Origin: Bacillota bacterium
Lineage (GTDB): Bacteria > Bacillota > Clostridia > Christensenellales > SZUA-584
Assembly (NCBI GenBank): GCA_023412005.1
Contig: JAEYOE010000014.1
Coordinates: forward strand, 4,890 to 68,889
DNA: 64,000 bases
Direction: 5' to 3'
The notes below the pieces were generated by a model, which was not told where the DNA came from, did no database searches, and saw only the letters and a program-made list of their open reading frames with translations. This document shows positions 19,342 through 39,541 of this stretch, one piece after another. A program made the translations under genes and the position numbers. Numbering within the stretch: position 1 is the first letter of the stretch; each line of letters begins with the position of its first letter.

Positions 19342-19377
19342 ACTAAAAGGCATATGAATTACGTTATATTTAATACC

Positions 19378-22191: not shown

Positions 22192-22584
22192 TGACGAAAC
22201 ATCCCTTCACTCTATACTCAAACAAAACAAAACCATATTAGTCATTATACAACATTAAACAACATTAATACCATACTATGAGATAAATTATATTTTTAAA
22301 CTTTTGAATTAGAAACAGAAGCAAAGACTTCACTGTAAATCAAAACCTTGCTAAAGTCATTCTTATTATGGAATGCCTTTTATTTGTATAGCTATCGCAA
22401 GAACTAGCGAATTTATATGCTGGGTGATATAATACTAAGCAATATGAAATGGAAGGCTTATTATGGCTGTTTCATGAAATTTATTCAATTAACGACTCTT
22501 ACAAAAAATGAGCAAATTGTGCTTGCGTAAAGTTTCTGGCCTTCGGACATAATGACTAACTTCGACTATAGGAGCCTATGATTT

Positions 22585-24927
22585 ATGATAGATAAAAAAC
22601 AGATGACCGAAGAGGATATCAAGCTCCAATTCATTACTCCGGCAATCACCGCCAAATGGAACTTAGATTATATTACGATGGAAACGAAAATCACGGATGG
22701 AAAAATCAATCTCAAGGGTAATTTTATAATTCGTGAAAAACCGAAAAAGGCTGATTACGTTCTTTATATAAATTCGAACAATCCGATTGCCATCGTCGAA
22801 GCCAAGGATAATAAGCATTCGGTATCTTATGGCTTACAGCAGGCTATAACTTATGCTCAAATGCTCGATGTACCCTTTGCATATAGCTCCAATGGTGATG
22901 CGTTTTATGAGCATGACTTTCTCACCGGGCAGGAGCGGCAAATAGAATTTTCCGATTTCCCATCACCAGATGAACTGATTAACCGTTATCAGGCTGGAAA
23001 AGGGTTGAATGAGAACGAAAAGAAAATCATCGAACAACCCTATTATACAAGCCAGACCACATACGCACCGCGATATTATCAGCGGAATGCAGTTAACCGT
23101 ACTTTAGATGCTATAGCCAAGGGTCAACAGCGTCTCCTTCTTGTTATGGCAACTGGGACAGGCAAGACATACACTGCGTTTCAGATTGTCTATCGTCTGC
23201 TGAAAAGCGGCATGAAAAGAAAGGTGCTATATTTAGCTGACCGCAACATCCTTGTTGACCAGTCAATTCAGCAGGATTTTGCTCCACTTAAAAAGACGAT
23301 ACATAAAATCAATTTTGCTAAGGACGATCCAGTAACAATTACATCACATGAGGTCTATTTCTCGCTATATCAGCAGCTAACCGACCGTGAGGATGAAGAG
23401 AATGATGAATGCGAAGACGAAACCGTTAGCCGTCTTTCCAAGCTATTTCAGAAGGACTTCTTTGATCTCATCATCGTGGACGAGTGCCATCGCGGTTCTG
23501 CAAAGAAGGACAGTAATTGGCGCAAGATACTCGATTATTTCTCCGCGGCAACACAAATTGGCATGACCGCCACGCCGAAAGAAACAAAATATATTTCCAA
23601 CATTGATTATTTTGGTGATCCGATTTACACCTATAGCCTTCGTGAAGGCATTGATGACGGTTTCCTTGCTCCTTTCAAAGTGATAAACATCCGTACCAAC
23701 ATAGGAGAAGGCTGGCGTCCTTATAAAGGGCAACTTGATAAGAACGGTAAAGAAATTGAAGATCGTATCTACACAAACAGCGATTTTGATTACAATATCA
23801 TCCTCGAAGACCGCACGTATGAGGTTGCCAAGGAAATCACAGAATACTTAAAAATCACGGACAGAATGCAAAAAACGATTGTGTTCTGTGCAACCGAGGA
23901 TCACGCAGAGCGTATGCGAATCGCGCTGGTCAACTTAAACTCCGATATGGTTCAGAAGAACCCAGATTATGTGGTTCGCATAACAGGCAGCGATGCGTAT
24001 GGTAAGAGCAAGCTCGATTATTTCATCTCCGTTTCTGCACCGTACCCTGTTATTGCAACAACCTCGAAACTTCTTTCAACCGGTGCGGACTGCAAGATGA
24101 CCAAGCTCATTGTTCTAGACCAAATGATTGGTTCTATGACGGAATTCAAGCAGGTTATCGGCAGAGGTACTCGGCTCCGTGAAAAAGAAGGCAAAACGCA
24201 CTTTATTGTTATGGATTTCCGCAATGTGACGCGCCTGTTTGCTGACCCTGACTGGGACGGCCCAATTGAACAGGATGATAATTACGGCAGCGGTGGAAAT
24301 AGACCCGCTGGCCCCGGGCCTGTAACACCTCCCGGCCCTGGCACTGATCCGAAAGAAAAGCCAATCGTTGATGAACATGGCTGCACAGTTAAGGTGATCG
24401 GTAAGACCGTTTCAATTTATGATGCCAACGGCAAGCTGCTCCGTCAAGAAAGCATTGTGGATTATACCAAGTCCAACATCCTCGGCACATACGCTTCTCT
24501 TGATAATTTCATCCAACAATGGTCTGCAGAAGAAAAGAAAGAAAGCATCAAGGATTTGCTCTTGGAGCGCGGTATCGATTTAGAAGGCATGAAAACTGAC
24601 CAGAACATGTCCGATGTGGACGATTTTGATTTCATTTGCCATGTTGCGTTTAACCAGAAACCTTTAACGCGGTGTGAACGAGCTAACAATGTTAAAAAGC
24701 GAGATTTCTTAAGCAAGTACAACGGGGTAGCTCGTGATGTTCTTGAAGCACTTCTGGATAAGTACATGAACACTGGCATCTATGAGATTGAGAAAACAGA
24801 GATTTTGAAGCTTGACCCACTACAGAAATTCGGCAAGCCATCAAAGATTGCGCAGTTTTTCGGTGGTAAAGAAGGATATCTGCAAGCGATCAAAGAATTA
24901 GAAGAAGAACTTTATAAGGTGGGTTGA
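22585..24927 (+). CDS. hsdR: Type I restriction enzyme R subunit
   Basis: 780 aa. Nuclease-like N-terminal domain (ADYVLY...IVEAKD), helicase motifs MATGTGKT and DECH, and an EcoEI-type C-terminal region. Confidence 0.9.
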   Translation: MIDKKQMTEEDIKLQFITPAITAKWNLDYITMETKITDGKINLKGNFIIREKPKKADYVLYINSNNPIAIVEAKDNKHSVSYGLQQAITYAQMLDVPFAYSSNGDAFYEHDFLTGQERQIEFSDFPSPDELINRYQAGKGLNENEKKIIEQPYYTSQTTYAPRYYQRNAVNRTLDAIAKGQQRLLLVMATGTGKTYTAFQIVYRLLKSGMKRKVLYLADRNILVDQSIQQDFAPLKKTIHKINFAKDDPVTITSHEVYFSLYQQLTDREDEENDECEDETVSRLSKLFQKDFFDLIIVDECHRGSAKKDSNWRKILDYFSAATQIGMTATPKETKYISNIDYFGDPIYTYSLREGIDDGFLAPFKVINIRTNIGEGWRPYKGQLDKNGKEIEDRIYTNSDFDYNIILEDRTYEVAKEITEYLKITDRMQKTIVFCATEDHAERMRIALVNLNSDMVQKNPDYVVRITGSDAYGKSKLDYFISVSAPYPVIATTSKLLSTGADCKMTKLIVLDQMIGSMTEFKQVIGRGTRLREKEGKTHFIVMDFRNVTRLFADPDWDGPIEQDDNYGSGGNRPAGPGPVTPPGPGTDPKEKPIVDEHGCTVKVIGKTVSIYDANGKLLRQESIVDYTKSNILGTYASLDNFIQQWSAEEKKESIKDLLLERGIDLEGMKTDQNMSDVDDFDFICHVAFNQKPLTRCERANNVKKRDFLSKYNGVARDVLEALLDKYMNTGIYEIEKTEILKLDPLQKFGKPSKIAQFFGGKEGYLQAIKELEEELYKVG

Positions 24928-24929
24928 AA

Positions 24930-26405
24930 ATGAGCTTAACTAATTTCGTCAAGAGACTTCGAGACATTATGCGCAATGATGCAGGTATCAACGGTGACGC
25001 TCAGCGTATTGAGCAGATTGCATGGATGTTATTTTTAAAGGTATATGACGCAAAAGAGCAGGACTGGGACATGGATGAAGATGATTATAAGTCCATCATC
25101 CCGGAGGAGTGCCGCTGGAGCAGCTGGGCAGTGGATGACAAAAGCGGCAAAGCCATGACTGGTGACAGGCTGATGAGCTTTGTCAATAACACTTTGTTTC
25201 CCACGCTCAAAGGACTCAATGTAACGCCAGATACGCCTATAAAAAAGTCTATCGTAAAGACCACTTTCGAAGATGCCAACAACTATATGAAAGACGGCGT
25301 TCTGCTCCGTCAGGTTATCAACATCATTGACGAATTGGATTTGAGCGACTATGATGAAAGCCATGCTTTTGGAGAAATCTATGAATCTATACTCCGTGAA
25401 TTGCAGAGTGCGGGTTCTTCCGGTGAATTCTATACGCCCCGCGCGGTCACGGAATTCATGGCCAAGATGATCCAACCGAAAATCGGTGAAAAGATGGCCG
25501 ATTTTGCTTGCGGCACCGGCGGCTTTATCACCAGTTGGCTAAATGAACTCGCTCCACTGATCAAGACAACGGATGACCAGGTTGAATATGATAATTCCAT
25601 TTACGGTATCGAAAAGAAACAGTTTCCTTATATGCTTTGCATCACAAATATGCTACTTCATGGTCTTGATGTGCCGAAAATCTATCATGACAACTCATTG
25701 CTGCGTGATGTGCTGGATTACACAGAGGATGATCAGTTTGATGTCATCTTAATGAATCCTCCGTATGGTGGAAGTGAAAAAGCAGATGTTAAAAACCATT
25801 TCCCCTCTGACCTTGCCAGCAGTGAAACGGCAGATCTCTTTATGTCTGTCATTATGTATCGCTTAAAGAAAAATGGCAGAGTAGCCGTTATCCTACCGGA
25901 TGGTTTTCTGTTTGGCACTGACAATACCAAGGTTGCCATAAAGAAAAAACTGCTTTCTGAATTCAATCTGCACACTGTTATCCGTATGCCCAACAGTGTG
26001 TTTTCTCCTTACACCTCGATCACCACGAACATTCTGTTCTTTGACCGTACAAAGCCAACTTCGGATACATGGTTTTTCCGTCTGGATATGCCGGAGGGAT
26101 ACAAACATTTTTCCAAGACAAAGCCTATGAAGCTGGAGCATTTTGATCCAGTCATCGAATGGTGGGATAATCGGGTGGAAATTAGCGTTGACGGCTTTGA
26201 CAAGGCCAAGAAGTACACCGCTGTGCAGCTCATCGAGGAACTGGGATACAATCTCGACCAGTGCGGCTATCCCCACGAGGAAGAAGAAATACTCGACCCG
26301 ATGGATTTGATTCATGAGTATGAGGAACGACGGGCATCTTTGAATGCCGAGATTGACCGTGTACTTGCTGATATTACCTCCATTCTTGGGGGTGCGAAGC
26401 AATGA
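24930..26405 (+). CDS. hsdM: Type I restriction-modification methyltransferase M subunit
   Basis: HsdM N-terminal domain (RIEQIAWMLFLKVYD), FYTPR, and the catalytic NPPYGG motif. ATG at 24930 follows AAGGTGG. Confidence 0.9.
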   Translation: MSLTNFVKRLRDIMRNDAGINGDAQRIEQIAWMLFLKVYDAKEQDWDMDEDDYKSIIPEECRWSSWAVDDKSGKAMTGDRLMSFVNNTLFPTLKGLNVTPDTPIKKSIVKTTFEDANNYMKDGVLLRQVINIIDELDLSDYDESHAFGEIYESILRELQSAGSSGEFYTPRAVTEFMAKMIQPKIGEKMADFACGTGGFITSWLNELAPLIKTTDDQVEYDNSIYGIEKKQFPYMLCITNMLLHGLDVPKIYHDNSLLRDVLDYTEDDQFDVILMNPPYGGSEKADVKNHFPSDLASSETADLFMSVIMYRLKKNGRVAVILPDGFLFGTDNTKVAIKKKLLSEFNLHTVIRMPNSVFSPYTSITTNILFFDRTKPTSDTWFFRLDMPEGYKHFSKTKPMKLEHFDPVIEWWDNRVEISVDGFDKAKKYTAVQLIEELGYNLDQCGYPHEEEEILDPMDLIHEYEERRASLNAEIDRVLADITSILGGAKQ

Positions 26406-27895
26406 CCCCGCAGGAATTGAAAAACAGCATTCTACAGTTAGCCATTCAGGGTAAGTTGGTTGAGCAACGGCCGGAAGAAGGCACAGGCGAGGAACTTTAT
26501 AAGCAGATACAAACAGAGAAACAACGGCTCATCAAAGCAGGAACTATCAAAAAAGAAGAACTAATACCGGAAATCATTGAAGATGAGAAGCCGTTCGATA
26601 TTCCGGACAGTTGGATTTTTGTGCGTCTTGATGATATCATTCAAAAAAATATAAAACGAGGTAAATCACCAACATACATTGCTTCTAGTAATACGCTTGT
26701 CTTTGCACAAAAGTGTAATGTGAAGACAGGTGGAATTAATATGACTCTCGCTCAGTATCTTGATGAATCAACTTTGCACAAATATCCAAAAGAAGAATTT
26801 ATGCGTGATATGGACATTGTTGTTAACTCAACAGGAAATGGGACTTTAGGAAGAATAGGTATATATAGCGATTCCGATAATCCTAAAAATCAGCAAATAG
26901 TGCCGGATTCCCATGTTACGGTTGTCAGGGTCAACAACTACACACTGCCTAAATACGCATATTATTTTTTAAAAAGAAAGCAACCATATCTCGAAAGCAT
27001 GGGAGATGGCTCAACAAATCAAACTGAACTTAAACCATATGTTTTAAGAGCATTAGTAATTCCGCTTCCGCCTCTTGCTGAGCAGAAGCGTATTGTTGCC
27101 AAAATAGAAGAACTACTGCCTCTTATCGAACGCTACGAACAGGCGTGGAGCAAACTTGAGGACTTCAACAAGCATTTTCCAATCGATATGCAGAAATCCA
27201 TCCTGCAGATGGCAATTCAAGGCAAGCTAGTCGAGCAGCGCTCGGAGGAAGGTACAGGAGAGCAACTGTATCAACAGATTCAAGCCGAAAAGCAAAGACT
27301 CATTAAAATAGGGACTTTAAAAAAAGATAAACCTCAACCAGAAATAACAGAAGACGAAAAGCCGTTTGATATACCAGAAAGTTGGGCATGGGTTAGACTA
27401 CAGGAAATCGGAGAATTAAGTCGTGGTCGCTCTCAGCATCGTCCGCGCAATGATTCAAGCTTATATATCAACGGAACGGTCCCGATGATTCAAACTGGCG
27501 ATGTCGCAAGAGCGAATGGATATATCTCTGTCTGGTCAGTAATGTATAATGAGTTTGGCGTTGCGCAAAGCAGGATATGGAAAGCGGGGACCGTATGCTT
27601 AACTATTGCTGCAAATATTGGTGATGTTGCAATCTTAAAATTCGATGCTTGTTTTCCTGATAGCGTCGTTGGATTCAATGCATACAGACCCGTGGTGTCA
27701 AATGAATATTTCATGTATGGCTTGATGTGCTATAAAAGCATTTTGAACATAATGTCCCGTTCAACGGCGCAAAAGAATATTAACATTGATATTTTGTCTA
27801 AAATTGCATTTCCTCTCCCGCCCCTTGCAGAGCAAAAGCGCATTGTTGCTCAGCTAGAAGAAATCCTGCCTCTGTGTGAGAAGTTGAAAAGGTGA
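26402..27895 (+). CDS. hsdS: Type I restriction-modification specificity S subunit
   Basis: Two target-recognition domains separated by duplicated conserved regions (SILQ.AIQGKLVEQR.EEGTGE...EDEKPFDIP.SW and LPPLAEQKRIVA). ATGA overlap with hsdM. Confidence 0.9.
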   Translation: MTPQELKNSILQLAIQGKLVEQRPEEGTGEELYKQIQTEKQRLIKAGTIKKEELIPEIIEDEKPFDIPDSWIFVRLDDIIQKNIKRGKSPTYIASSNTLVFAQKCNVKTGGINMTLAQYLDESTLHKYPKEEFMRDMDIVVNSTGNGTLGRIGIYSDSDNPKNQQIVPDSHVTVVRVNNYTLPKYAYYFLKRKQPYLESMGDGSTNQTELKPYVLRALVIPLPPLAEQKRIVAKIEELLPLIERYEQAWSKLEDFNKHFPIDMQKSILQMAIQGKLVEQRSEEGTGEQLYQQIQAEKQRLIKIGTLKKDKPQPEITEDEKPFDIPESWAWVRLQEIGELSRGRSQHRPRNDSSLYINGTVPMIQTGDVARANGYISVWSVMYNEFGVAQSRIWKAGTVCLTIAANIGDVAILKFDACFPDSVVGFNAYRPVVSNEYFMYGLMCYKSILNIMSRSTAQKNINIDILSKIAFPLPPLAEQKRIVAQLEEILPLCEKLKR

Positions 27896-27950
27896 GTGCA
27901 AGCCCAGTTGTGAATAAGAAAAAGCTAAATAAAAACGAACCTTTTTCATG

Positions 27951-27979
27951 TTGACAATTTGAAAATTGTGTAGTAAATT
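27951..27979 (+). promoter_or_regulatory. Sigma-A promoter with no ORF behind it
   Basis: TTGACA, 17 nt, TAAATT. Confidence 0.45.
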
Positions 27980-27985
27980 TTAGAC

Positions 27986-28176
27986 AGTCTAATAGATTTT
28001 CTGTTAGCAATCGTTAATGTTGAGGTGATAGGGTGCCAACACTCTACGAACCTCTAACCGTTTAATTTTGAGGCAACAGGGGTTTTTACATTCCTCAAAC
28101 CTCTAACAAGGTAGTTATTAAGCCTTTATGGCAAACAATTAAGAGAGACGAACTTTTTTTAGTCGTCTTTTTTTGT
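27986..28176 (+). ncRNA. Candidate about 190-nt structured non-coding transcript, or the oriT/dso region of the element
   Basis: Lies between the promoter at 27951 and the AGACGA/TCGTCT hairpin plus T run at 28146..28174. It contains stems GAGGT/ACCTC and TTTGAGG/CCTCAAA and a 10-nt direct repeat AACCTCTAAC (28049 and 28098). No plausible ORF. Confidence 0.3.
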
Positions 28177-28357
28177 TTGCGGGAACGGGGATAAAAGTAG
28201 AAAGGGGGTGATGCCTATGGTGTTTATTTGTAATGATGGTTTATATCGCTACAGAAACATACTTGGTATCAGATATCGCAATATCCATTGTAGCCCCCTC
28301 CCCGCAAATTATTAATTAAAGTACAAATAATTATTGGATAAAGTAGCATAGTTACTT

Positions 28358-28723
28358 TTGAATAAGCATATCAGATCACAATCAGGCTCTGATATAATTA
28401 ATCGAATAATTACAGAGAAACATTTAACACAGGCTGATGTAGTTCGGAAAACCGGACTCAGCAGATCGGTAATAAATCGCATATGTCGAAACAGTAACGA
28501 TAAGGGGGAACCATATATACCAACAGATGATGTTTTCTGGATATTGGTATATGACTTAAGAATGTCAGAAGAAGAGAAAAGCGAATTGGAAAATGCTTGG
28601 TTTCCTGAAAAAAAGATTCTGCGTGAAAATGTTGGGCGAGGTTTGAGTTCAACGGAAATAAACGAGATATTATATGAATCCGAATGCAAATTGTTAGGCT
28701 ATAAAAGATCGGATGACAATTAA
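28358..28723 (+). CDS. HTH (XRE-like) DNA-binding protein
   Basis: LTQADVVRKTGLSRSVINRICR is a helix-turn-helix. The only possible start is a TTG without a clear SD. A terminator follows. Confidence 0.5.
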   Translation: MNKHIRSQSGSDIINRIITEKHLTQADVVRKTGLSRSVINRICRNSNDKGEPYIPTDDVFWILVYDLRMSEEEKSELENAWFPEKKILRENVGRGLSSTEINEILYESECKLLGYKRSDDN

Positions 28724-28734
28724 GCATAAAAAAT

Positions 28735-28771
28735 GGCCACTCTTCAAGCACTGGAAGGGTGGTCTTTTTTC
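28735..28771 (+). terminator. Rho-independent terminator after the HTH gene
   Basis: GGCCACTCTTC / GGAAGGGTGGTC stem (9 of 11 pairs) followed by TTTTTT. Confidence 0.55.
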
Positions 28772-28868
28772 TGCGCTGCTTCTCCCAAGAAGCCAACACA
28801 AAAATAATATCTGTTACTGTAAATGCAAGTGATGCGCATACCTTAAAAAATTATTAAAGGAGATTAAC

Positions 28869-29231
28869 ATGCCTAATAAGATTGAAACCACACTGATGGC
28901 GATTAATGGCAATCAGGACTTTGCTATTATCGTAGGCAAAAGCGATGTATTTCAGTATGAAAATGGGCAGCGCACAAGCAAAGAAAGAGTAGGAGTTCGC
29001 CTTAATTTAGCTCTTCAGGGAAACAAGCTCACCCCGATATCGGCGCGCATTGATGGAGCAGATCCTTTGCCAGACTTAACGGATGAGCATATTGCGGAGA
29101 CATGTAGGCAGAGAAAATTTCTCTATGTCAAGCTGATTGAACCCGTCGTATCGATATATACCATTAATAATAACATCAATATGACGGCAACGGCAAAAGG
29201 CGCAGAAATCATCGGGAACAACAGCAAATAG
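28869..29231 (+). CDS. Small conserved element protein, DUF961-like (Tn916 Orf22/23 position)
   Basis: 120 aa with a strong SD (AAAGGAG). It precedes the FtsK-like gene as in Tn916-type modules. Family assignment is from sequence pattern only. Confidence 0.4.
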   Translation: MPNKIETTLMAINGNQDFAIIVGKSDVFQYENGQRTSKERVGVRLNLALQGNKLTPISARIDGADPLPDLTDEHIAETCRQRKFLYVKLIEPVVSIYTINNNINMTATAKGAEIIGNNSK

Positions 29232-29309
29232 TGAGGGGTTGTACGGAATGGAGGGGGAGGACAACCCCCTCCAGCTGTATAGGTCAGAACAAGAAAGGAA
29301 GTCCTTGAG

Positions 29310-30518
29310 ATGAAAAGCGAAAAAGATTCTATGCTTGCACATATGGGGGAATATGTGAGAACGCATTGGAAATGGCTGTTTTTTATTATCTATATAATAG
29401 CAGCAATTTTGGGCTGGAATATGAAGCTTGAAATACTAAGTTTCTTGCATATTGATAATATTCCTTTTCTACATCCGATATATAAAATCATCATCAGTGC
29501 TATATACTTACTGCTGGGCACATGTCTCCTTATATGCATTTTGAAGTGGGTTAGAGAACCAGTATTTTTGCAATTATGGTATAAAAGAGGATTTGAGAAC
29601 ATTGGATTTAAAAACAGTCAAGGCATGGTTCCGATTCTCAAGTCAAGGCGCAAAGACAAACGTAAAACGCACGGTCTCATTTACGAGTTTGATAATGTTG
29701 GACTTTCTGTAGACGATTTTGAAAATAGCACTGATAGAATTCAAACGGTTTTAAATGGAACGGTTTATCGTATCGCATATTCTAAAAAGAGAATGAGCAG
29801 AACCTTTTTATATGTATTGCCTAAAAAGTATGCTTTACCAACAGTTATTTCACTTAACAGTATATCCATGTGTTCGGAGCCGAATCTATTATGCGTAGGA
29901 AAAACCGGAGCAGGGAAAAGCTACGCGCTTGCCACCATGATGGGGATTTTTGCATTACATATCCCTGAAGTAAGTATCACAATTTGCGATTATAAAAAGA
30001 GTTCATTTGCTCAATTTGAGGATACACCAAATTTCTTTGGTTATCAGGATGTGCCAGATGGAGTACGGGGATTCTATAAAGAATTCCAAGAGCGTCTTGC
30101 GGCAAATGATTCTGACCGTAATAAGAAGGTGAGGGTTCTTCTTATTGATGAGTACGGTGCATTAATAGCCGCACAGGACAAGAAACTTGCAGATGAACTA
30201 AAGATGATGATAGCCAATATGCTCTTTATGGGACGTAGCCTCGGTATAAAGGTTTTGATTGGTGTGCAACGGGCAGATAGCGAGCACTTTCGCGCTGGTG
30301 CACGAGATCAGTTTAGGTCAATCCTTGCACTTGGCAATCTCTCAAAAGAACAAAAGCTGATGCTATTTGCGGATGATAGAGATAGTATGACGGAAATTAA
30401 CGACATCGGTGAGGGCTATCTTTTTATTGATGGAAAGGGTCTGGAAAGAGTAAAGATTTCCCCAATCAGAGATTCCGAGTTTCTCAACGAGAGTATAAGA
30501 AAAGCTATGTACCATTAG
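29310..30518 (+). CDS. FtsK/SpoIIIE-family (TcpA/Orf21-like) DNA translocase / coupling protein
   Basis: N-terminal TM helices, Walker A GKTGAGKSYAL and Walker B VLLIDEYGAL. Confidence 0.8.
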   Translation: MKSEKDSMLAHMGEYVRTHWKWLFFIIYIIAAILGWNMKLEILSFLHIDNIPFLHPIYKIIISAIYLLLGTCLLICILKWVREPVFLQLWYKRGFENIGFKNSQGMVPILKSRRKDKRKTHGLIYEFDNVGLSVDDFENSTDRIQTVLNGTVYRIAYSKKRMSRTFLYVLPKKYALPTVISLNSISMCSEPNLLCVGKTGAGKSYALATMMGIFALHIPEVSITICDYKKSSFAQFEDTPNFFGYQDVPDGVRGFYKEFQERLAANDSDRNKKVRVLLIDEYGALIAAQDKKLADELKMMIANMLFMGRSLGIKVLIGVQRADSEHFRAGARDQFRSILALGNLSKEQKLMLFADDRDSMTEINDIGEGYLFIDGKGLERVKISPIRDSEFLNESIRKAMYH

Positions 30519-30641
30519 AGACAAGGACGGGCGGGCGGCTTATGCGTAGCAAGAAGTCGCTCGTTTGTCCATGCCGCCGAAGGCGGCAATTTAACTTGTT
30601 TCTTATGATACAATATCACGTTCTTAAAAAGAGGTGAAAAA

Positions 30642-31565
30642 ATGAGAATCGAAAGGTTGTCAGACAACATTAAACCGTCGCCAGATAGCACTGTAACAGT
30701 TAAAAAAATGGGACATATCACCGAGGTTCGTTATATGCAAGTCACTACTGGTGGTACTATCCATAAGCTTGATAAAGATAGCTATGTTGATTTAAGTACT
30801 GGTGAGGTCAAAGACTTTAAGCATAGAAAGAATCGATTAGGAAACATCGAAAGTGTCTCACGTTCCCTTCGTAATTTGCGGGATATCATAAATGCTAATA
30901 CCATTGATCAAGAAAATTGTTTATGGGTCACACTTACGTATGCGGAAAATATGCAAGACGAAAAACGGCTCTATGATGATTATCGTAAGTTCAATATGAA
31001 ATTTCAGAGATACTTAAAGAATGAAGGTATATTTAAGTGTGAATATATAGCCGCTGCGGAACCGCAAGGTAGAGGCGCATGGCATTTGCATATACTATTT
31101 ATCTATCCTGAAAAAGCACCGTTTATAAAGAATGCAACATTATCAGAGTTATGGGGTCACGGCTTTGTAAGCATATCGTCACTAATGGGCATCGATAATA
31201 TTGGTGTCTACCTATCCGCATATCTAAGCGATATGGATGTTATTAAAGCTTTGAATACAGTCGATTTTGATTGTAAGAAAGTCAAGATAGTAAATTCAGA
31301 TAGTGAAAATGACAGACGGCGTAAAAAAGCAATCATTAAAGGCGCTAGGATGAGGCTTTATCCAACGGGCTTTAGAATTTACCGACTTAGTAGAGGGATT
31401 AAGAAGCCGGTAATTTCCAAGATGACCGAGGCCGAGGCTATGCAGGAAGTAGAAGACGCAGCTCTTACATTCGAAAAAACAATACGGATAAAAAACAACG
31501 AAGATAAGACTATAAATCAAATCAATTACAGACATTTCAATAGCAGAGCTAATGAAGAGAGATAA
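30642..31565 (+). CDS. HUH rolling-circle replication initiator / relaxase
   Basis: RCR motif 1 LWVTLTY, motif 2 (HUH) GAWHLHILFIY, and a Tyr motif GVYLSAYLSD. 307 aa. Confidence 0.65.
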   Translation: MRIERLSDNIKPSPDSTVTVKKMGHITEVRYMQVTTGGTIHKLDKDSYVDLSTGEVKDFKHRKNRLGNIESVSRSLRNLRDIINANTIDQENCLWVTLTYAENMQDEKRLYDDYRKFNMKFQRYLKNEGIFKCEYIAAAEPQGRGAWHLHILFIYPEKAPFIKNATLSELWGHGFVSISSLMGIDNIGVYLSAYLSDMDVIKALNTVDFDCKKVKIVNSDSENDRRRKKAIIKGARMRLYPTGFRIYRLSRGIKKPVISKMTEAEAMQEVEDAALTFEKTIRIKNNEDKTINQINYRHFNSRANEER

Positions 31566-31664
31566 CTTAATGTCAATATGCTAAGTGCCCAGTCTTGGAC
31601 TGAACACAAGCAGTCAAGTGAACATATTTTATAATAAAGATTTCTTGAAAGGGGGACGGTGCCA

Positions 31665-31841
31665 ATGAAGGCTGAGAATTCGGAAACCCTAAATAGCATC
31701 AATGATTCAATCGCATTGACGCCGGAACAATCGGATAAGTTGCAAGCTGCTGTTAAGATTGGCCTATGTAAAGAGCTACATCGAAAAGGCTTGCTGACAG
31801 ATATGCAACTAAACTATTTAATTTTAGAACAAAACGAATAA
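31665..31841 (+). CDS. Small helical protein immediately upstream of the recombinase (candidate RDF / excision cofactor)
   Basis: 58 aa from the ATG at 31665, with AAAGGGGGA as SD. No recognised family. The functional call rests on position only. Confidence 0.35.
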   Translation: MKAENSETLNSINDSIALTPEQSDKLQAAVKIGLCKELHRKGLLTDMQLNYLILEQNE

Positions 31842-31914
31842 TGTTTTGTTGCCCATCTCCGCCGTTTTTGATAGAATAAAAGCAGCGGATTTTTTATTAT
31901 TGAGGATGAATTAA

Positions 31915-33525
31915 ATGAGTGATAAATTGAAAGTTGCGGCCTATTGCCGAGTATCAACAGATAAAGATGACCAAGCAAATTCACTGGCAAGCCAAATTGA
32001 TTATTTCACCAAATACATCAGCAATAACAATGAATGGGAAATGGTTGAGGTTTATTACGATGAAGGTATAACCGGGACTTCAACAAAAAAGCGCACAGGA
32101 TTCAATAGAATGATTGCTGATGCTTTGAACGCCAGAATTGATTTAATATTAACGAAAGAGATCAGCCGATTTGCCCGTAATACCCTTGATAGTATCAGTT
32201 ATACAAGGGAGTTAAAAGAAAAGGGTATAGGGGTTGTATTCATCAATGATAATATCAATACCCTTGACAATGACAGCGAATTGCGGCTTACGATCATGTC
32301 AAGTATTGCTCAAGAAGAGAGCAGAAAGACATCTGAGCGCGTCAAATGGGGGCAGAAGCGTCGAATGGAGCAAGGCGTTGTATTCGGCAGGGATATGTTG
32401 GGGTATTTCGTCAAGGACGGTAAATTAATAGTTAATCCAGATGAGGTCGAGGCTGTTAAGCTAATATTCCATAAGTATCTTAATGAGGGGAAAGGCACGT
32501 GGACAATAGCAAGAGAATTGTATAACTCAGGAATCAAGCCGAAACGTGTTAAAGAGTGGTCAAATACCATGATACTGAAAGTGCTGCGTAACGAAAAATA
32601 TGTTGGTGACTTGCTTCAAAAGAAAACCTTTACGCCGAATTATTTGAGCCATTCAAAGAAATATAACAACGGGCATGAGGATAAAGTATATATCCGTGAT
32701 CATCACGAGCCTATCATTGATCGCAAGACTTGGGATACAGTTCAAAAAGAGCTTGATAGGCGTTCTCCCTCTAATGAGCAAAAATCAAAACATTCTAACC
32801 GCTATTGGTGCAGCGGTAAATTAATATGCGGCGAATGTGGACAAAGGTTTGTTAGTAAAACGAAAAAGCTATCTGATGATTCGGTTTATAAAGCGTGGAG
32901 ATGTTATGCTGCCGCTAATCACGGAACAGCAAAAGTCGATGATTTGGGGAATCATGTAGGATGTGATAGCAGTTCCATAAATGACAAGGTTCTTCTTTAT
33001 TGTGTTTGCTATGTTCTTAAGCATATTCAAATCAATAAGGACAAAATCATTAAAGACCTTATGCAAAGCATAAAGTCAGTACAGTCCATAAATACGATTG
33101 TTGATACTGCTAAATTGTATGAACAGATTAGCCAAATAAACAAAAAGAAAGCCAAAGCCTATGATCTTGTTATTGAAGGACTTATGAGCAAAGAAGACTT
33201 AAAATTGCAGATAGAGGAATACGATAGCCAGATTAGAGGAATCACTTCTCAAATATCTGAAGCGGAAAACGAGAACGGCATTCGCCAAATGCAGCTTGAG
33301 GGTATAAACCAATATATAGTTGAGATAAAGAGAATCCTTAACTTCGACACCGAAAATGAGCTGTTGTATAGGGAACTTGTTGATAAAATAAAAGTCTACA
33401 ATAGGAATACGGTTGAGGTGCATATGAAATGCCTTCCCTTTGTTGTTAAATTGATATATTCATCAAAGGGAAGAATGGAGAAGTTTACAGTGAGGATTGA
33501 AAAAATTGAGATATTGGAGAATTGA
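31915..33525 (+). CDS. Large serine recombinase (SpoIVCA/TnpX/TndX class)
   Basis: Resolvase catalytic domain AAYCRVSTDKDDQ...SLASQ, then a recombinase domain and a zinc ribbon CGECGQRF...WRC, then a coiled-coil tail. 536 aa. Confidence 0.9.
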   Translation: MSDKLKVAAYCRVSTDKDDQANSLASQIDYFTKYISNNNEWEMVEVYYDEGITGTSTKKRTGFNRMIADALNARIDLILTKEISRFARNTLDSISYTRELKEKGIGVVFINDNINTLDNDSELRLTIMSSIAQEESRKTSERVKWGQKRRMEQGVVFGRDMLGYFVKDGKLIVNPDEVEAVKLIFHKYLNEGKGTWTIARELYNSGIKPKRVKEWSNTMILKVLRNEKYVGDLLQKKTFTPNYLSHSKKYNNGHEDKVYIRDHHEPIIDRKTWDTVQKELDRRSPSNEQKSKHSNRYWCSGKLICGECGQRFVSKTKKLSDDSVYKAWRCYAAANHGTAKVDDLGNHVGCDSSSINDKVLLYCVCYVLKHIQINKDKIIKDLMQSIKSVQSINTIVDTAKLYEQISQINKKKAKAYDLVIEGLMSKEDLKLQIEEYDSQIRGITSQISEAENENGIRQMQLEGINQYIVEIKRILNFDTENELLYRELVDKIKVYNRNTVEVHMKCLPFVVKLIYSSKGRMEKFTVRIEKIEILEN

Positions 33526-33736
33526 GTTGCTACTATTGTTCGCGCTATAATATGCTAATATATGATGATTTTCGTGCCAAAAAGATTTCTCTTCTGCATA
33601 GATTGGAGTTGGCATACGGCTTATCTATCGGCATGACAGAAAGCGCCTATGTGGCGGAACTTATGAAGTTGTCTCAAGAAAAAATAGCAGGGTTGAAATA
33701 AGAAGGCTCCATTTCTTGATGTTATTATTACACAAA

Positions 33737-34468
33737 TTATGTAGTGGAACGTCTACGTTTTAGCTCTGCTGGCAACTCATATAAATATTTCAATAGTTCT
33801 CTCATAAAACTGTGCAATTGTTTTGCATCATCATTAGTGACAGGATTAATAGGATCATAATGAGCCCCATCATTACCAATTAAACGCACTTCTTTTGCCC
33901 ATTCAGATAGATTTGGTTGCAGTATACCTTTATCTGATAGAGCTTTTAATCTATCAACAAGATGTCCTTTTGTTTCACCGAGATTTTCCGTAATTGCTTC
34001 GAGTGTTCGCCTTAGCATAACCGTAGATGCCCGAGGACAGTTAGCGAGTAACGTTGTTGATGCTTCACTAAATGCATCACGTATACATTCGGGGATATCC
34101 TTTGATAAATTACTATCAGGTAATGGCCACCAGTGTATTCCCCTGAAGGTAATAGAACCACCTGTCCATTTTAAACGAGAAGGTGTTTCGCCAATATATT
34201 CCTCTTCAATAACTACTGTAGCCTGATTGCAGTTTCGGCATAATAAAGAAGACACTCTATCGCTATAGGTCTTTTCACCGGTTGTTGCAACTACACCTTC
34301 GCTATAAGTTACCGGTAAGCTTCCGATTATATCAAAACTTGATTGTTTATTGCATCGTGGGCACAAGCCATTTGGTCTATATGAATCAGGAAGTCCGTCA
34401 TTTTTTAAAGGAAGTGGTTCGTTTCTTTTGCCCTTATTCGTTGGACTCTTTGCAAAAATATTAAACAT
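33737..34468 (-). CDS. Zn-ribbon plus DUF4145 domain protein
   Basis: CPRCN...CRNCN ribbon, then DAFSEA...MLRRTLEAI...IRLIGNDGAHYD typical of DUF4145. Start moved to the ATG at 34468, which has AAGGAGAAG upstream. Confidence 0.65.
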   Translation of the reverse strand: MFNIFAKSPTNKGKRNEPLPLKNDGLPDSYRPNGLCPRCNKQSSFDIIGSLPVTYSEGVVATTGEKTYSDRVSSLLCRNCNQATVVIEEEYIGETPSRLKWTGGSITFRGIHWWPLPDSNLSKDIPECIRDAFSEASTTLLANCPRASTVMLRRTLEAITENLGETKGHLVDRLKALSDKGILQPNLSEWAKEVRLIGNDGAHYDPINPVTNDDAKQLHSFMRELLKYLYELPAELKRRRSTT

Positions 34469-34594
34469 TGTTCTTCTCCTTAAATTGTATATAATCATAC
34501 TATAGTTACCTGTATATTTCAACATAATATACCAATTAATAAGATAAGAATATAAACAGTAACAGAAAATGCATTGTATTTTTATTTTGTTTTG

Positions 34595-34623
34595 TTGAAA
34601 GAAAAACTAACGCGTGGTATATT
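34595..34623 (+). promoter_or_regulatory. Sigma-A promoter for the peptide / MUG-like / DUF2971 operon
   Basis: TTGAAA, 17 nt, TATATT with a TGn extended -10. Confidence 0.45.
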
Positions 34624-34683
34624 ATAGAAATAATATAAGTGGTTTTGATTCAATATTATTATAAATAAAAGGCAGGTCATCTG

Positions 34684-34755
34684 ATGTTATTTATAATAGC
34701 AATTATATGTATAATTATAGGTTTGTCGGGCACTAAAGGAAGATATAGAAGATAA
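34684..34755 (+). CDS. Candidate 23-aa hydrophobic peptide (MLFIIAIICIIIGLSGTKGRYRR)
   Basis: AAGGCAGG lies 7 nt upstream. The stop overlaps the next gene's ATG (TAATG). It could be a chance ORF in AT-rich DNA. Confidence 0.3.
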   Translation: MLFIIAIICIIIGLSGTKGRYRR

Positions 34756-35267
34756 TGAATAACGAATGTAAATATGTTCTTGAAGATACTTTGGAATACG
34801 GACAGAGATTAGTTATTTGCGGTACGGCTGCGGGGGATACTTCAGCAGCGAAAGAATACTATTATGCTGGCTCCGGTAATAAATTCTGGGCAATACTTCA
34901 CAAAACTAAACTTACTGCCCAACAACTACACCCTAATGAATATAAAATTCTTAAAGACTATTCAATTGGCTTAACAGACATTGTTAAAGACCAACATGGT
35001 AATGATAGCAAGATAAATTTTAACAATTCACAATCCAATGAACTTCGAAGGAAAATTATTTTATTCAAGCCGAAAGTATTATGCTTCAACGGAAAAGAAG
35101 CTGCAAAAAGATTTTTTAATAAAAAAGCAGTAGACTATGGTGTATGTAAAGAAATAATTGGTGACACCATATTGTACATTGCTCCATCAACCAGCGGTTT
35201 GGCAGCCAAATGGTGGGATGAATCCTTTTGGCATGAATTATCAGGAATCGTTGGAGATGGAAAATGA
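34755..35267 (+). CDS. Uracil-DNA glycosylase superfamily protein, MUG/TDG-like, with the catalytic Asn replaced
   Basis: RLVICGTAAGDTSA aligns with E. coli Mug RVVFCGINPGLSSA. Further matches: AGSGNKFW with HPANRFW, IGLTDIV with GVTKLV, and YIAPSTSGLA with LPNPSGLS. Confidence 0.7.
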   Translation: MNNECKYVLEDTLEYGQRLVICGTAAGDTSAAKEYYYAGSGNKFWAILHKTKLTAQQLHPNEYKILKDYSIGLTDIVKDQHGNDSKINFNNSQSNELRRKIILFKPKVLCFNGKEAAKRFFNKKAVDYGVCKEIIGDTILYIAPSTSGLAAKWWDESFWHELSGIVGDGK

Positions 35268-35974
35268 GCTTATATAAGTATTCCGCTATTACAAAACATA
35301 CTAAAGAAAACTTAATGAATAACCTAATATATTTTCAATCCCCAAGTTTTTTTAATGATCCATACGAATTCATTTTTAAGTTCGAAGTTGCTGATCAAAT
35401 CTACATTAAGTTTCTAAAGCTTGTTTACGGTGATCAATATAAGTTTTTTTTAGAAAAAGGCATGTCAAAAAGTGAAGTGCTGGAGCATACTCGAGATCAT
35501 TATTTTGGTCAAATGTGTAAGTTGCTTGGGGCGGTCTGTTTATCAGAAGACGATAATAATGACCTAATGTGGGCGCATTATGGCGGTAATCATCATGGAA
35601 TCTGTATTGAATTTGATGCAGAAATTACTCCATTTCACCTATGTCAAAAAGTTCATTATATAAACGATGTTTTTTGTCTGTCGATAAATACTGTCTCCAA
35701 TCTTCAAGAACAATTAGAAATAGAAATAGGGGCAGCCTTTCTTCGAAAAAGTAAAATATGGAGCTATGAAAAAGAATGGAGAATATTATCTGAAGCTTAT
35801 TCAATTGAACCATATCCTGCCAAGGCGATTAAATCAATAACCTTTGGATTTTTCTGTGAGAAGGAAAGCAAGCAAGAAATTATTAATCTAACTTCGCACT
35901 TGAACATCAAGTATTATGAAATAGTTCGTTCAAAAGATCATTATCTAACAAAGAAGATAGAATATAATAAATAA
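35264..35974 (+). CDS. DUF2971 family protein
   Basis: LYKYSAI...NLIYFQSPSFFNDPYEF and MWAHYGGNHHGICIEFD fit DUF2971. ATGA overlap with the MUG-like gene. Confidence 0.7.
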   Translation: MSLYKYSAITKHTKENLMNNLIYFQSPSFFNDPYEFIFKFEVADQIYIKFLKLVYGDQYKFFLEKGMSKSEVLEHTRDHYFGQMCKLLGAVCLSEDDNNDLMWAHYGGNHHGICIEFDAEITPFHLCQKVHYINDVFCLSINTVSNLQEQLEIEIGAAFLRKSKIWSYEKEWRILSEAYSIEPYPAKAIKSITFGFFCEKESKQEIINLTSHLNIKYYEIVRSKDHYLTKKIEYNK

Positions 35975-35985
35975 GCAATTAAGAT

Positions 35986-35998
35986 AACGATATAGGTA
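35986..35998. repeat. attR core (AACGATATAGGTA)
   Basis: Direct repeat of 19321..19333. CotJC homology resumes in frame here. Confidence 0.75.
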
Positions 35999-36419: not shown

Positions 36420-36448
36420 AAGGATGCATAAGGCTGCATCCTTTTTTC
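36420..36448 (+). terminator. Rho-independent terminator ending the cotJ operon
   Basis: AAGGATGCA / TGCATCCTT 9-bp stem followed by TTTT. Confidence 0.7.
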
Positions 36449-38727: not shown

Positions 38728-39396
38728 TTAATTTGGGTTTGTGAATTGCGGCGGTTGCGGATTGCTGGGCGCAAAATACTGCCCGCCGGGTGAAGATAAG
38801 TCAAAATACATTTTCGAGTCGCCTGTTACGCCCCAGTCTTTTAACGACCCGGTGTCCTTTATTCTGTTGAACGCTTCACGGAACAATTGTGCGCTTCTTC
38901 GCGGTTTAGCAAAAAAGACAATGGTCTCACGAACGCCCTTGTCGTTAATCTGCCGGTAAAGATATTGATATACCACCTTGGCTCTTTCCTCTGCCGCAAT
39001 GTCAGAGAGTATATCCGCAGCGAGATCACCCGTTGCTTCAATATATGCGCCTGTCCATGGAAAACCTGACGCGTTGGTGAGGGCAGGCGTTAATTCCGTC
39101 TGGACATGAGCTTCAATGCTGCCGCTATTCGCGTTTGCCGCGTCCAGCGTGTGTCCGTTCAGCAAATTTACGGTTGTGGCAACCATCTCCATATGCCCGA
39201 GCTCTTCTGAAGCAACATCCAGGAAAAGATCCTTTATCTGCGGATCGTTGATAAGAAAGCTTTGCGACATATACTGAAGCGCCGCTTTTAGCTCGCCGTG
39301 CGGGCCGCTAAGCTGTTCCTGCATCATCGCTGCGTAGTTTGGGTTCGGTGCGTCAATTTTAACTGGAAAGAGAAGCTGTTTTTCGTGTTTGAACAT
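38728..39396 (-). CDS. Manganese catalase family protein (CotJC paralog) with a frame-shifted internal segment
   Basis: PHGELKAALQYMSQ, ASEELGHMEMV and AAEERAKVVYQYL motifs. Start placed at the ATG at 39396, after GGGAGGT. The expected FLxxRExxH motif is present only in another reading frame (see findings). Confidence 0.75.
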   Translation of the reverse strand: MFKHEKQLLFPVKIDAPNPNYAAMMQEQLSGPHGELKAALQYMSQSFLINDPQIKDLFLDVASEELGHMEMVATTVNLLNGHTLDAANANSGSIEAHVQTELTPALTNASGFPWTGAYIEATGDLAADILSDIAAEERAKVVYQYLYRQINDKGVRETIVFFAKPRRSAQLFREAFNRIKDTGSLKDWGVTGDSKMYFDLSSPGGQYFAPSNPQPPQFTNPN

Positions 39397-39541
39397 GAGG
39401 TTACCTCCCAAAACAAATTGTTCGGTTTTATTCTCTTCAACAAAAAAGCTTATTCGTTCAAATCATTAAAACGACTGTTTGTTTTAATGAAAAACAAAGA
39501 GATATAGCCGTCGTGATAACCTGAAATATAACGAGTCAGTG

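What the first reader, a model, noticed from the sequence alone, without database searches (positions are those of the whole stretch)
34595..35974. Translationally coupled operon: 23-aa membrane peptide, MUG-like glycosylase fold lacking its catalytic Asn, and DUF2971
Seen in sequence: a TTGAAA-17-TATATT promoter heads three ORFs joined by TAATG and ATGA overlaps.
- The middle protein aligns along its length with family-2 uracil-DNA glycosylases (E. coli Mug). Its GINPG motif reads GTAAG, so the Asn that positions the hydrolytic water in Mug/TDG is Ala. The second motif is also altered (APSTSGL versus NPSGL).
- The downstream protein has the DUF2971 signatures YKY...FNDPYEF and WAHYGGNHHGICIEF.
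- The upstream peptide MLFIIAIICIIIGLSGTKGRYRR looks like a small membrane toxin or leader peptide.

Inference: this is a base-recognition module that either senses or excises a non-canonical (phage-modified?) base by a different mechanism, coupled to an unknown DUF2971 partner. It is the rightmost cargo of the element. I do not know it as a described system.
Basis: partly seen in the sequence, partly recalled or inferred. Interest (0 to 1): 0.7.

Follow-up and report, generated by a model that had tools for sequence, protein, structure and literature searches.

The report
Uracil-DNA glycosylase beside DUF2971 defence gene
Two known kinds of gene, a Deinococcus-type (MUG2) uracil-DNA glycosylase and a stand-alone DUF2971 phage-defence candidate, sit together at the end of a mobile element, but they are not a conserved pair, so this is an ordinary defence-island juxtaposition and not a new system.

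Summary
The three ORFs, their TAATG and ATGA overlaps, the GTAAG/APSTSGL motifs and the DUF2971 signatures are all in the sequence.

The "missing Asn" is not a lesion. The protein belongs to the published MUG2 class typified by Deinococcus radiodurans MUG (PDB 2c2p; model TM 0.90). That class carries Ala at this position and uses an Asp instead. The Asp is present here (D84) and invariant in 120 homologues.

The DUF2971 protein matches the PADLOC candidate family PDC-S31 (E = 9e-44). It shares its domain with Aristaios, a validated single-gene abortive-infection system.

The pair is not conserved:
- 0 of 88 other MUG2 loci have a DUF2971 gene.
- 0 of 165 DUF2971 loci have a MUG2 gene.
- The three closest DUF2971 orthologues stand alone.

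MUG2 genes are mostly housekeeping. They overlap unrelated downstream genes by 4 bp just as often.

A minority sit in defence or mobile contexts, with different effectors downstream (UzuA, HNH, HsdR). A Brig-like anti-phage role for this foreign, AT-rich copy therefore remains plausible but untested.

The 23-aa ORF is unique and unverifiable.

The operon is the right-end cargo of a 16.65-kb serine-recombinase element that splits cotJC.

The parts
34595..34623 (+). Sigma-A/sigma-70-type promoter-like site: TTGAAA, 17 nt, TATATT, with a TG extended -10. It lies in the 158-bp divergent intergenic region shared with the DUF4145 gene.
   Evidence: 10/12 match, TG present. The count of such sites in the region equals the shuffle expectation, so only its position supports it.
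34684..34755 (+). 23-codon mini-ORF (MLFIIAIICIIIGLSGTKGRYRR). Its stop overlaps the glycosylase start (TAATG). It may be a translated leader or coupling ORF, or a small membrane peptide. Unverified.
   Evidence: AAAGGCAGG at 34668-34676 lies 7 nt before the ATG (read). The hydrophobic 14-mer is rare among small ORFs of the island (2/174). No counterpart in 88 MUG2 loci or 5 DUF2971 orthologue loci.
34755..35267 (+). MUG2-class (D. radiodurans MUG-type) family-2 uracil-DNA glycosylase, 170 aa. Motif 1 is C22-G-T-A25-A-G, the predicted catalytic residue is Asp84, and motif 2 is P144-S-T-S147-G-L.
   Evidence: Pfam UDG 2.3e-16. Best PDB sequence hit 2c2p, 1.8e-23. AF2 model pLDDT 93.8. Foldseek best hit 2c2p, TM 0.90, rmsd 1.8 A. 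A25 and D84 are invariant in 120/120 homologues.
35264..35974 (+). DUF2971 protein, 236 aa, of the PDC-S31 type and sharing the DUF2971 domain with Aristaios. Probably a stand-alone abortive-infection-type defence effector. Conserved motifs: FNDPYEF (30-36), WAHY (103-106), YEKEWR (168-173).
   Evidence: Pfam DUF2971 4e-9. PADLOC PDC-S31 9.1e-44 over residues 2-227. Subfamily alignment. GGAG lies 7 nt before the ATG (read). AF2 model pLDDT 90.
35986..35998 (.). Right junction core of the integrated element (AACGATATAGGTA). Its partner, AACGATATCGGTA, is at 19321-19333. It marks the operon as the last cargo before the 3' part of cotJC.
   Evidence: The joined cotJC (196 aa) aligns without a break to Mn-catalases across the junction.
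33737..34525 (-). Divergently transcribed neighbour: a DUF4145 protein (PD-T7-4-like). A separate defence candidate in the same islet, not part of the operon.
   Evidence: Pfam DUF4145 2.1e-18. PADLOC PD-T7-4 1.8e-12.

Best explanation
The locus is one transcription unit that joins two functionally independent cargo genes at the right end of a 16.65-kb serine-recombinase element inserted in cotJC.

Gene 1 is a complete MUG2-class family-2 uracil-DNA glycosylase. It lacks the Mug/TDG Asn because its class uses an Asp (here D84) to drive hydrolysis of the N-glycosidic bond. It is therefore expected to flip out and excise uracil, and possibly 5-substituted uracils or ethenocytosine, from DNA and leave abasic sites.

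Gene 2 is a stand-alone DUF2971 effector of the PDC-S31 type, with the same domain as Aristaios. It is expected to abort phage infection on its own, possibly through an ADP-ribosyltransferase-like activity.

They are co-expressed here through gene packing in a defence islet, not because they form an obligate system.

Inferred, not shown: in this foreign, AT-rich, mobile copy the glycosylase most likely serves as a Brig-like base-excision restriction factor. The probable targets are phages whose DNA carries uracil or 5-substituted uracil in place of thymine, which (from my own knowledge) occur among phages of spore-forming Firmicutes. The mini-ORF, if translated, mainly delivers ribosomes to the glycosylase start codon.
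For: Identity of gene 1:
-.
- The DrMUG class, its Asp93 and its activity on U:G, U:A and ssU are described in PMC5128194 and PMC9796141.

Identity of gene 2:
-.
- Aristaios is a single-gene DUF2971 Abi system (PMC11381338).
- The ART-like prediction is from PMC12522546.

Independence of the two genes:
- 0/80 genomic MUG2 loci have DUF2971 within 8 kb, and 0/165 DUF2971 loci have MUG2 within 6 kb.
- 0/8 further MUG2 loci have DUF2971.
- The closest DUF2971 orthologues (72, 55 and 53% identity) stand alone.
- DUF2971's neighbours are prophage or mobile genes. No UDG or DarG-like family appears among the 25 families listed (of 63 matched).
- MUG2's neighbours are metabolic genes with no recurrent partner.
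- 4-bp overlaps of MUG2 with amidase, Zn-dehydrogenase, ABC permease and hydantoinase genes show that overlap alone does not mean partnership.

Mobile or defence setting of this copy:
- Gene GC is 0.35 against host 0.50, whereas family members elsewhere deviate by +0.005 +/- 0.036.
- The island carries a type I R-M system, a PD-T7-4-like gene and PDC-S31.
- Other MUG2 copies lie beside UzuA, HNH, HsdR, SIR2-STAND, transposases and serine recombinases.

Precedent: UDG-superfamily defence glycosylases Brig1, Brig2 and Brig3 (PMC11078745; 10.1101/2025.10.29.685425; 10.64898/2026.02.25.707755).
Against: - No experiment supports any activity.
- The operon exists in only one genomic context (4 contigs, all the same), so conservation cannot test co-function here.
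- The two genes are translationally coupled. In three other loci a MUG2 gene directly abuts a different DNA-targeting effector (by a 4-bp overlap in L248 and L049). A looser functional link could exist.
- The defence role of the glycosylase rests on context only. About 90% of the family looks housekeeping, and the defence-context members do not form a clade.
- I could not reproduce the ART fold for DUF2971 (Foldseek best E = 0.36; no ART, DarT or AbiGi hit with HMMER).
Confidence: 0.6

Rival explanations
1. This is a genuine two-component module. The MUG2 glycosylase is a front-end that marks or damages phage DNA (abasic sites at U or modified-U). The downstream effector, DUF2971 here and UzuA, HNH or HsdR in other loci, acts on the product. 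In short, a modular glycosylase-plus-variable-effector architecture.
For: - ATGA translational coupling in the window.
- L248: a MUG2 gene overlaps by 4 bp a UzuA/GIY-YIG-like gene.
- L049: a 4-bp overlap with an HNH gene.
- L055: a MUG2 gene directly upstream of a type I hsdR, with hsdM and hsdS nearby.
Against: - Each pairing is a single case.
- The three closest UzuA relatives have no MUG2 gene, and the closest DUF2971 orthologues have none either.
- The same 4-bp overlaps occur with metabolic genes.
- Defence-context MUG2 proteins do not cluster in the tree.
- DUF2971 (Aristaios) is reported to work as a single gene (PMC11381338).
Confidence: 0.13
2. The glycosylase is plain repair cargo: a horizontally captured housekeeping base-excision enzyme that protects host or element DNA from cytosine deamination. 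It has no role in phage defence and merely sits next to a defence gene.
For: - All family-invariant residues are kept.
- The family is overwhelmingly chromosomal, compositionally native and flanked by metabolic genes.
- MUG2 genes are almost absent from viral contigs (3 of 2.9 million), and none is in the phage or plasmid records.
Against: - This copy is strongly foreign (GC 0.35 against 0.50).
- It is wedged between two defence candidates at the end of a mobile element that also carries a type I R-M system.
- Several other copies lie in defence or mobile contexts.
- UDG-fold glycosylases have been recruited to defence repeatedly (the Brig1-3 papers).
Confidence: 0.22
3. This is a toxin-antidote pair. 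DUF2971 is a DarT-like DNA ADP-ribosyltransferase toxin, and the glycosylase is its antidote, removing the modified base as DarG removes ADP-ribose.
For: - A published prediction that DUF2971 resembles DarT/AbiGi (PMC12522546).
- The upstream-antidote, downstream-toxin gene order, with translational coupling.
Against: - DUF2971 genes are stand-alone in 165 loci, with no macrodomain, DarG or UDG family among the 25 neighbour families listed.
- Close orthologues lack any upstream partner.
- The ART fold could not be confirmed here.
Confidence: 0.03

Closest known systems
Deinococcus radiodurans MUG (DR0715; PDB 2c2p, 2c2q), the 'MUG2' class of family-2 UDGs
   Same: - Same fold over the full length (TM 0.90, rmsd 1.8 A, 34% identity).
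- Same Asn-less motif 1 (GTAPS in DrMUG, GTAAG here).
- Same conserved Asp (Asp93 there, D84 here).
- Similar PSTS motif 2.
   Different: - Only about 34% identical.
- DrMUG is a chromosomal repair gene, whereas this copy is compositionally foreign cargo of a mobile element in a spore-former.
- Its activity and substrate range are untested.
E. coli Mug / human TDG (canonical family-2 UDG)
   Same: Same family-2 fold and overall alignment. The GL wedge-like residues of motif 2 match Mug's PSGL.
   Different: - It lacks the GINPG Asn.
- It scores 90 bits against the NCBIfam Mug equivalog cut-off of 144.
- It belongs to the separate MUG2 branch.
Brig1 / Brig2 / Brig3 defence glycosylases (UDG superfamily)
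   Same: A UDG-superfamily glycosylase encoded in an AT-rich, mobile, defence-island setting. The proposed logic is the same: excise a phage-specific base and leave abasic sites.
   Different: - Brig1's nearest structure is a family-4 UDG (4ZBY; PMC11078745). This protein is family 2, and family-4 structures score only about TM 0.6.
- No phenotype is known.
- Its family is mostly housekeeping and not dedicated to defence.
Aristaios (lactococcal plasmid DUF2971 Abi system) and PADLOC PDC-S31
   Same: - A DUF2971 domain protein.
- A full-length PDC-S31 match (9e-44).
- Relatives are single genes in prophage or defence hot spots.
   Different: - Aristaios is 316 aa; this protein is 236 aa. I had no Aristaios sequence, so their identity was not measured.
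- In the window the gene is translationally coupled to an upstream glycosylase, which is not seen elsewhere.
DarTG toxin-antitoxin defence system
   Same: By published prediction, DUF2971 has a DarT-like ART core with a conserved Tyr and an ExE motif (PMC12522546). The window protein has Y106 and E169/E171.
   Different: - There is no DarG or macrodomain partner.
- The ART fold was not recovered by Foldseek or HMMER here.
- The neighbour is a glycosylase and is not conserved.

Membership tests
UDG superfamily, family 2, MUG2 class (DrMUG type) | UDG-superfamily domain above Pfam's curated threshold | tested here: met
   PF03167: 60.6 bits against a cut-off of 24.3, residues 16-160.
UDG superfamily, family 2, MUG2 class (DrMUG type) | Closest solved structure and sequence is DrMUG, not E. 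coli Mug or TDG | tested here: met
   phmmer: 2c2p at 1.8e-23 against 1mug-type at 2.8e-17. Foldseek: 2c2p ranks first, TM 0.90.
UDG superfamily, family 2, MUG2 class (DrMUG type) | Motif 1 without the Mug/TDG Asn (G-T-A-x-x) | tested here: met
   CGTAAG in the window. Ala at the Asn position in 120/120 homologues and in DrMUG (GTAPS).
UDG superfamily, family 2, MUG2 class (DrMUG type) | Catalytic Asp equivalent to DrMUG Asp93 | tested here: met
   D84 aligns with the residue that is Asp in 2c2p and Ala in the inactive mutant 2c2q. It is invariant in 120/120 and in A1.
UDG superfamily, family 2, MUG2 class (DrMUG type) | Glycosylase activity on U:G, U:A and ssU | not testable with these tools
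   Needs an enzyme assay.
Canonical Mug (NCBIfam NF007570 equivalog) | Score above the equivalog cut-off, and the GINPG Asn | tested here: not met
   90.1 bits against a cut-off of 144. Asn replaced by Ala.
Brig-type defence glycosylases | UDG-superfamily fold encoded in a defence island or mobile AT-rich region | tested here: met
   Fold. Island with type I R-M, a PD-T7-4-like gene and PDC-S31. Gene GC 0.35 against host 0.50.
Brig-type defence glycosylases | Kinship with Brig1 (nearest structure a family-4 UDG, 4ZBY) | tested here: not met
   Family-4 structures (4zby and others) reach only about TM 0.6, E about 1e-7, far behind family 2. The Brig1 description is in PMC11078745. No Brig sequences were at hand for a direct comparison.
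Brig-type defence glycosylases | Excision of a phage-specific base, and a phage-resistance phenotype | not testable with these tools
   Needs phage challenge and enzyme assays.
DUF2971 / PDC-S31 / Aristaios-type single-gene defence | DUF2971 domain and a full-length PDC-S31 profile match | tested here: met
   PF11185: 38.1 bits against 22. PDLC04990: 9.1e-44, residues 2-227 against profile positions 8-251 of 259.
DUF2971 / PDC-S31 / Aristaios-type single-gene defence | Stand-alone gene, with no conserved partner, in prophage or defence hot spots | tested here: met
   Relatives: phage tail and baseplate genes, integrase, HsdS, HTH neighbours; no MUG2 in 165 loci. The window copy is the exception in having an overlapping upstream gene.
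DUF2971 / PDC-S31 / Aristaios-type single-gene defence | ADP-ribosyltransferase (HYE-clade) fold and motifs | tested here: inconclusive
   The conserved Tyr (Y106) and E-x-E (E169, E171) are present. But Foldseek against the PDB gave nothing significant (best E = 0.36), and HMMER found no ART, DarT or AbiGi signal. The assignment rests on PMC12522546 and PMC11381338.
DUF2971 / PDC-S31 / Aristaios-type single-gene defence | Abortive-infection phenotype | not testable with these tools
   Needs phage assays.
   0/80 plus 0/8 MUG2 loci with DUF2971, and 0/165 DUF2971 loci with MUG2. The operon itself is seen only in one genomic context.
DarTG-like toxin-antitoxin | An adjacent antidote gene (macrodomain DarG or equivalent) conserved with the ART gene | tested here: not met
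   No macrodomain or recurrent partner among the 25 families listed for 114 genes flanking DUF2971.

The most novel reading that the evidence does not exclude
MUG2-type glycosylases are recurrently recruited as an upstream, translationally coupled front-end for different DNA-targeting defence effectors: DUF2971 here, UzuA, HNH and type I HsdR elsewhere. In this operon the glycosylase would convert uracil or modified uracil in phage DNA into abasic sites, which license or potentiate the DUF2971 effector. The 23-aa hydrophobic peptide would be a third, membrane-associated component.
Probability: 0.1. Interest if true: 0.7.

Novelty: new member of a known kind. Interest (0 to 1): 0.3.

Why it matters
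If the captured MUG2 glycosylase does restrict phages, it would be the first family-2 UDG shown to act in defence, extending the Brig1-3 principle. The natural targets would be the uracil- and 5-substituted-uracil-DNA phages of Bacilli (known to me, not retrieved here). From general knowledge, Mug-type enzymes are not inhibited by the phage protein Ugi that blocks host Ung.

As it stands, the value of the locus is mainly annotation:
- It corrects "glycosylase fold lacking its catalytic residue" to "Asp-dependent MUG2 class".
- It identifies DUF2971 as a PDC-S31-type defence candidate that shares its domain with Aristaios.
- It shows that translational coupling in a defence islet need not indicate a system.

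Tried and rejected
1. Conserved pair. Profile HMMs for both proteins were run over 88 MUG2 loci and 165 DUF2971 loci. There were no co-occurrences.
2. Toxin-antidote idea. A Pfam census of 114 genes flanking DUF2971 lists no UDG, macrodomain or other recurrent partner among its 25 listed families.
3. A dedicated defence subclade of MUG2. The NJ tree is star-like. The window protein pairs only with P0002 at about 50% identity, and defence-context members are as far from one another as from housekeeping ones.
4. Overlap as evidence of function. The same 4-bp overlaps occur with amidase, Zn-ADH, ABC permease and hydantoinase genes.
5. UzuA as a regular partner of MUG2. The three closest UzuA relatives have no MUG2 gene, and a viral-contig scan for UzuA found nothing.
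6. Confirming the ART fold of DUF2971. Foldseek against the PDB and BFVD, a profile against PDB sequences and a relaxed Pfam scan were all uninformative.
7. A conserved leader peptide. None lies upstream of the DUF2971 orthologues or of 88 MUG2 genes.
8. Mobile MUG2 copies in annotated phages and plasmids. Only canonical Mug at 30-34% identity was found, mostly in chromosomal-type records.
9. The original DrMUG paper (PubMed 16223719) is not held. I relied on the review PMC5128194 and on PMC9796141.
10. Literature searches for PDC-S31 and Uzume/UzuA gave nothing usable.
Full report
WHAT IS THERE

- a 23-codon ORF at 34684-34755;
- a 170-aa ORF at 34755-35267, whose start overlaps the mini-ORF stop (TAATG);
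- a 236-aa ORF at 35264-35974, whose start overlaps the previous stop (ATGA).

TTGAAA-17-TATATT lies at 34595-34623 with a TG extended -10. However, promoter-like sites in this AT-rich stretch are no more frequent than in shuffled sequence (11 found; 12.8 +/- 3.7 expected). No terminator lies between the DUF2971 stop and the flanking gene. The only one found is at 36420-36443.

THE SETTING

The operon is the last cargo of a low-GC island (0.38, against 0.50 for the rest of the window). The island interrupts a cotJC-type Mn-catalase gene just downstream of cotJB.
- The junction cores are AACGATATCGGTA (19321-19333) and AACGATATAGGTA (35986-35998).
- Joining them gives a 196-aa protein that aligns without a break to Mn-catalases across the junction.

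The element carries:
- a large serine recombinase;
- FtsK-like and Rep genes;
- a complete EcoAI-type type I R-M system;
- a 937-aa protein of unknown function;
- a DUF4145 gene (PD-T7-4-like), transcribed divergently from the operon.

The operon occurs in only four public contigs, all with this same context.

THE GLYCOSYLASE

It is a UDG-superfamily protein (Pfam, 2.3e-16). It scores well below the NCBIfam cut-off for canonical Mug (90 bits against 144).

Its best solved relative is the D. radiodurans MUG, by sequence (2c2p, 1.8e-23) and by structure (AF2 model pLDDT 93.8; TM 0.90, rmsd 1.8 A). That enzyme also lacks the GINPG Asn (it has GTAPS). It defines the MUG2 class, whose catalytic residue is Asp93 and which removes U from U:G, U:A and single-stranded DNA (PMC5128194, citing Moe et al. 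2006; see also PMC9796141). PDB 2c2q is the inactive Asp mutant.

In the alignments the window's D84 sits at that position. Across 120 homologues, the Asn position is Ala in 120/120, D84 is Asp in 120/120, and P-S-T-S is nearly invariant.

So the "missing catalytic Asn" is a class trait with a known replacement. The protein keeps every invariant residue of its class, and I predict it is an active glycosylase.

THE DUF2971 PROTEIN

It passes Pfam's threshold. It matches PADLOC's candidate single-gene family PDC-S31 over its whole length (9.1e-44).

Its subfamily (21 sequences, 43-72% identical) conserves FNDPYEF, WAHY..H.G.C.E and W.YE.EWR.

Published work describes a single-gene DUF2971 abortive-infection system, Aristaios, on a lactococcal plasmid (PMC11381338). 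Other published work classes DUF2971 as an HYE-clade ADP-ribosyltransferase fold related to DarT and AbiGi, with a conserved Tyr and an ExE motif (PMC12522546).

I could not reproduce the fold assignment. A confident model (pLDDT 90) found nothing significant in the PDB (best E = 0.36) or in BFVD. HMMER saw no ART, DarT or AbiGi signal.

IS IT A SYSTEM?

From the DUF2971 side:
- The three closest orthologues (72, 55 and 53% identity) stand alone. One sits beside flagellin genes and a prophage-like cI/cro module, one follows an HTH gene, and one follows an RHS toxin.
- None of 165 DUF2971 loci has a MUG2-type gene within 6 kb.
- Their flanking genes are P2-type tail and baseplate genes, integrases, HsdS and HTH regulators. 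No UDG or macrodomain family is among the 25 families listed.
- 113 viral contigs encode DUF2971 relatives.

From the glycosylase side:
- None of 80 genomic loci (548 or more matching stretches in the one-genome-per-species collection, many phyla) has DUF2971 within 8 kb. Nor do 8 further loci.
- In those genomes the gene matches local composition (deviation +0.005 +/- 0.036).
- It is flanked by ATP synthase, M20 peptidase, CN-hydrolase, aminotransferase and similar genes.
- Only 5 of 80 loci have any hit to a panel of defence and mobility proteins.
- Only 3 of 2.9 million viral contigs carry a relative. Phage and plasmid records hold only canonical Mug.

Overlap is not evidence of partnership. 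MUG2 genes overlap by 4 bp with amidase, Zn-dehydrogenase, ABC-permease and DUF2007 genes, and by 1 bp with a hydantoinase B gene.

WHAT KEEPS IT MILDLY INTERESTING

Some of the nearest relatives of the window's glycosylase lie in defence or mobile contexts:
- L248 overlaps by 4 bp a UzuA/GIY-YIG-like gene (PADLOC, 9.5e-62).
- L249 lies between REase-ARP and a SIR2-STAND gene.
- L250 lies beside a resolvase and a Mu-type transposase.
- L049 overlaps an HNH gene.
- L055 directly precedes a type I hsdR.
- L255 is a frameshifted copy next to two large serine recombinases in a provirus.

These copies do not form a clade, and UzuA's closest relatives lack a MUG2 gene. They therefore look like independent captures.

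Defence glycosylases of the UDG superfamily are established (Brig1, Brig2, Brig3). However, Brig1 is nearest to family 4 (PMC11078745), not to family 2.

It is a reasonable inference that a mobile, Asp-dependent uracil glycosylase active on U:A could restrict phages with uracil or 5-substituted uracil in place of thymine. TDG, a relative, excises hmU (PDB entries listed). This inference rests on context and on general knowledge only.

THE MINI-ORF

It has a well-spaced AAAGGCAGG 7 nt upstream. The glycosylase start has only a distant AAAGGAAG (12 nt away), whereas DUF2971 has GGAG 7 nt upstream (read). That fits a coupling or leader ORF.

Its hydrophobic segment is rare among small ORFs of the island (2 of 174). 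But nothing like it precedes any other MUG2 gene or DUF2971 orthologue. It cannot be validated by comparison.

VERDICT

These are two members of known families, co-transcribed in a defence islet of a cotJC-splitting element. They are not a new system.

Noticed in passing
window 19334-35985 (junction cores 19321-19333 and 35986-35998): A 16.65-kb low-GC element splits a cotJC-type Mn-catalase spore-coat gene just after cotJB. Joining the flanks restores a 196-aa ORF that aligns continuously to Mn-catalases. The element has a large serine recombinase (31915-33525) plus FtsK-like and Rep genes. It may be a skin/SPbeta-style sporulation-gene intervening element, or an integrative mobilisable element.
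   Followed up: partly
window 19378-22191 (-): A 937-aa protein at the left end of the element. It has only a weak DUF4062 match (Pfam 0.0025) and no PADLOC or NCBIfam hit. It may be another defence gene.
   Followed up: no
window 33737-34525 (-): A DUF4145 protein (Pfam 2.1e-18) that matches PADLOC PD-T7-4 (1.8e-12). It is transcribed divergently from the operon and shares the 158-bp intergenic region.
   Followed up: no
window 22585-27895 (+): A complete EcoAI/FtnUII-type type I restriction-modification operon (hsdR, hsdM, hsdS with overlapping stops and starts), carried as cargo of the element.
   Followed up: no
window 38728-39411 (-): A second, intact Mn-catalase-family gene lies 2.3 kb downstream of the split cotJC. 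It may be a paralogue that covers for the interrupted gene.
   Followed up: no
L248 5001-6313: In a metagenomic contig, a MUG2-type glycosylase (50% identical to the window's) overlaps by 4 bp a UzuA (Uzume) GIY-YIG-like gene. This is the same architecture as in the window, with a different effector.
   Followed up: partly
L255 4836-5442: A MUG2-type gene (54% identical) broken into three frames. It lies next to two large serine recombinases, a SymE-type toxin and a Fic protein at the end of an IMG/VR provirus. It looks like a decaying cargo copy.
   Followed up: partly
L055 8001-11421; L049 6045-7759: In a Bacteroidales MAG, a MUG2 gene directly precedes a type I hsdR, with hsdM and hsdS nearby. 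In a Gemmatimonadaceae MAG, one overlaps by 4 bp an HNH-endonuclease gene.
   Followed up: partly
L188-L203 and other IMG/VR loci: DUF2971 genes recur at one position in P2-like prophages, between Phage_tail_S and baseplate V genes. This looks like a moron or defence hot spot.
   Followed up: no
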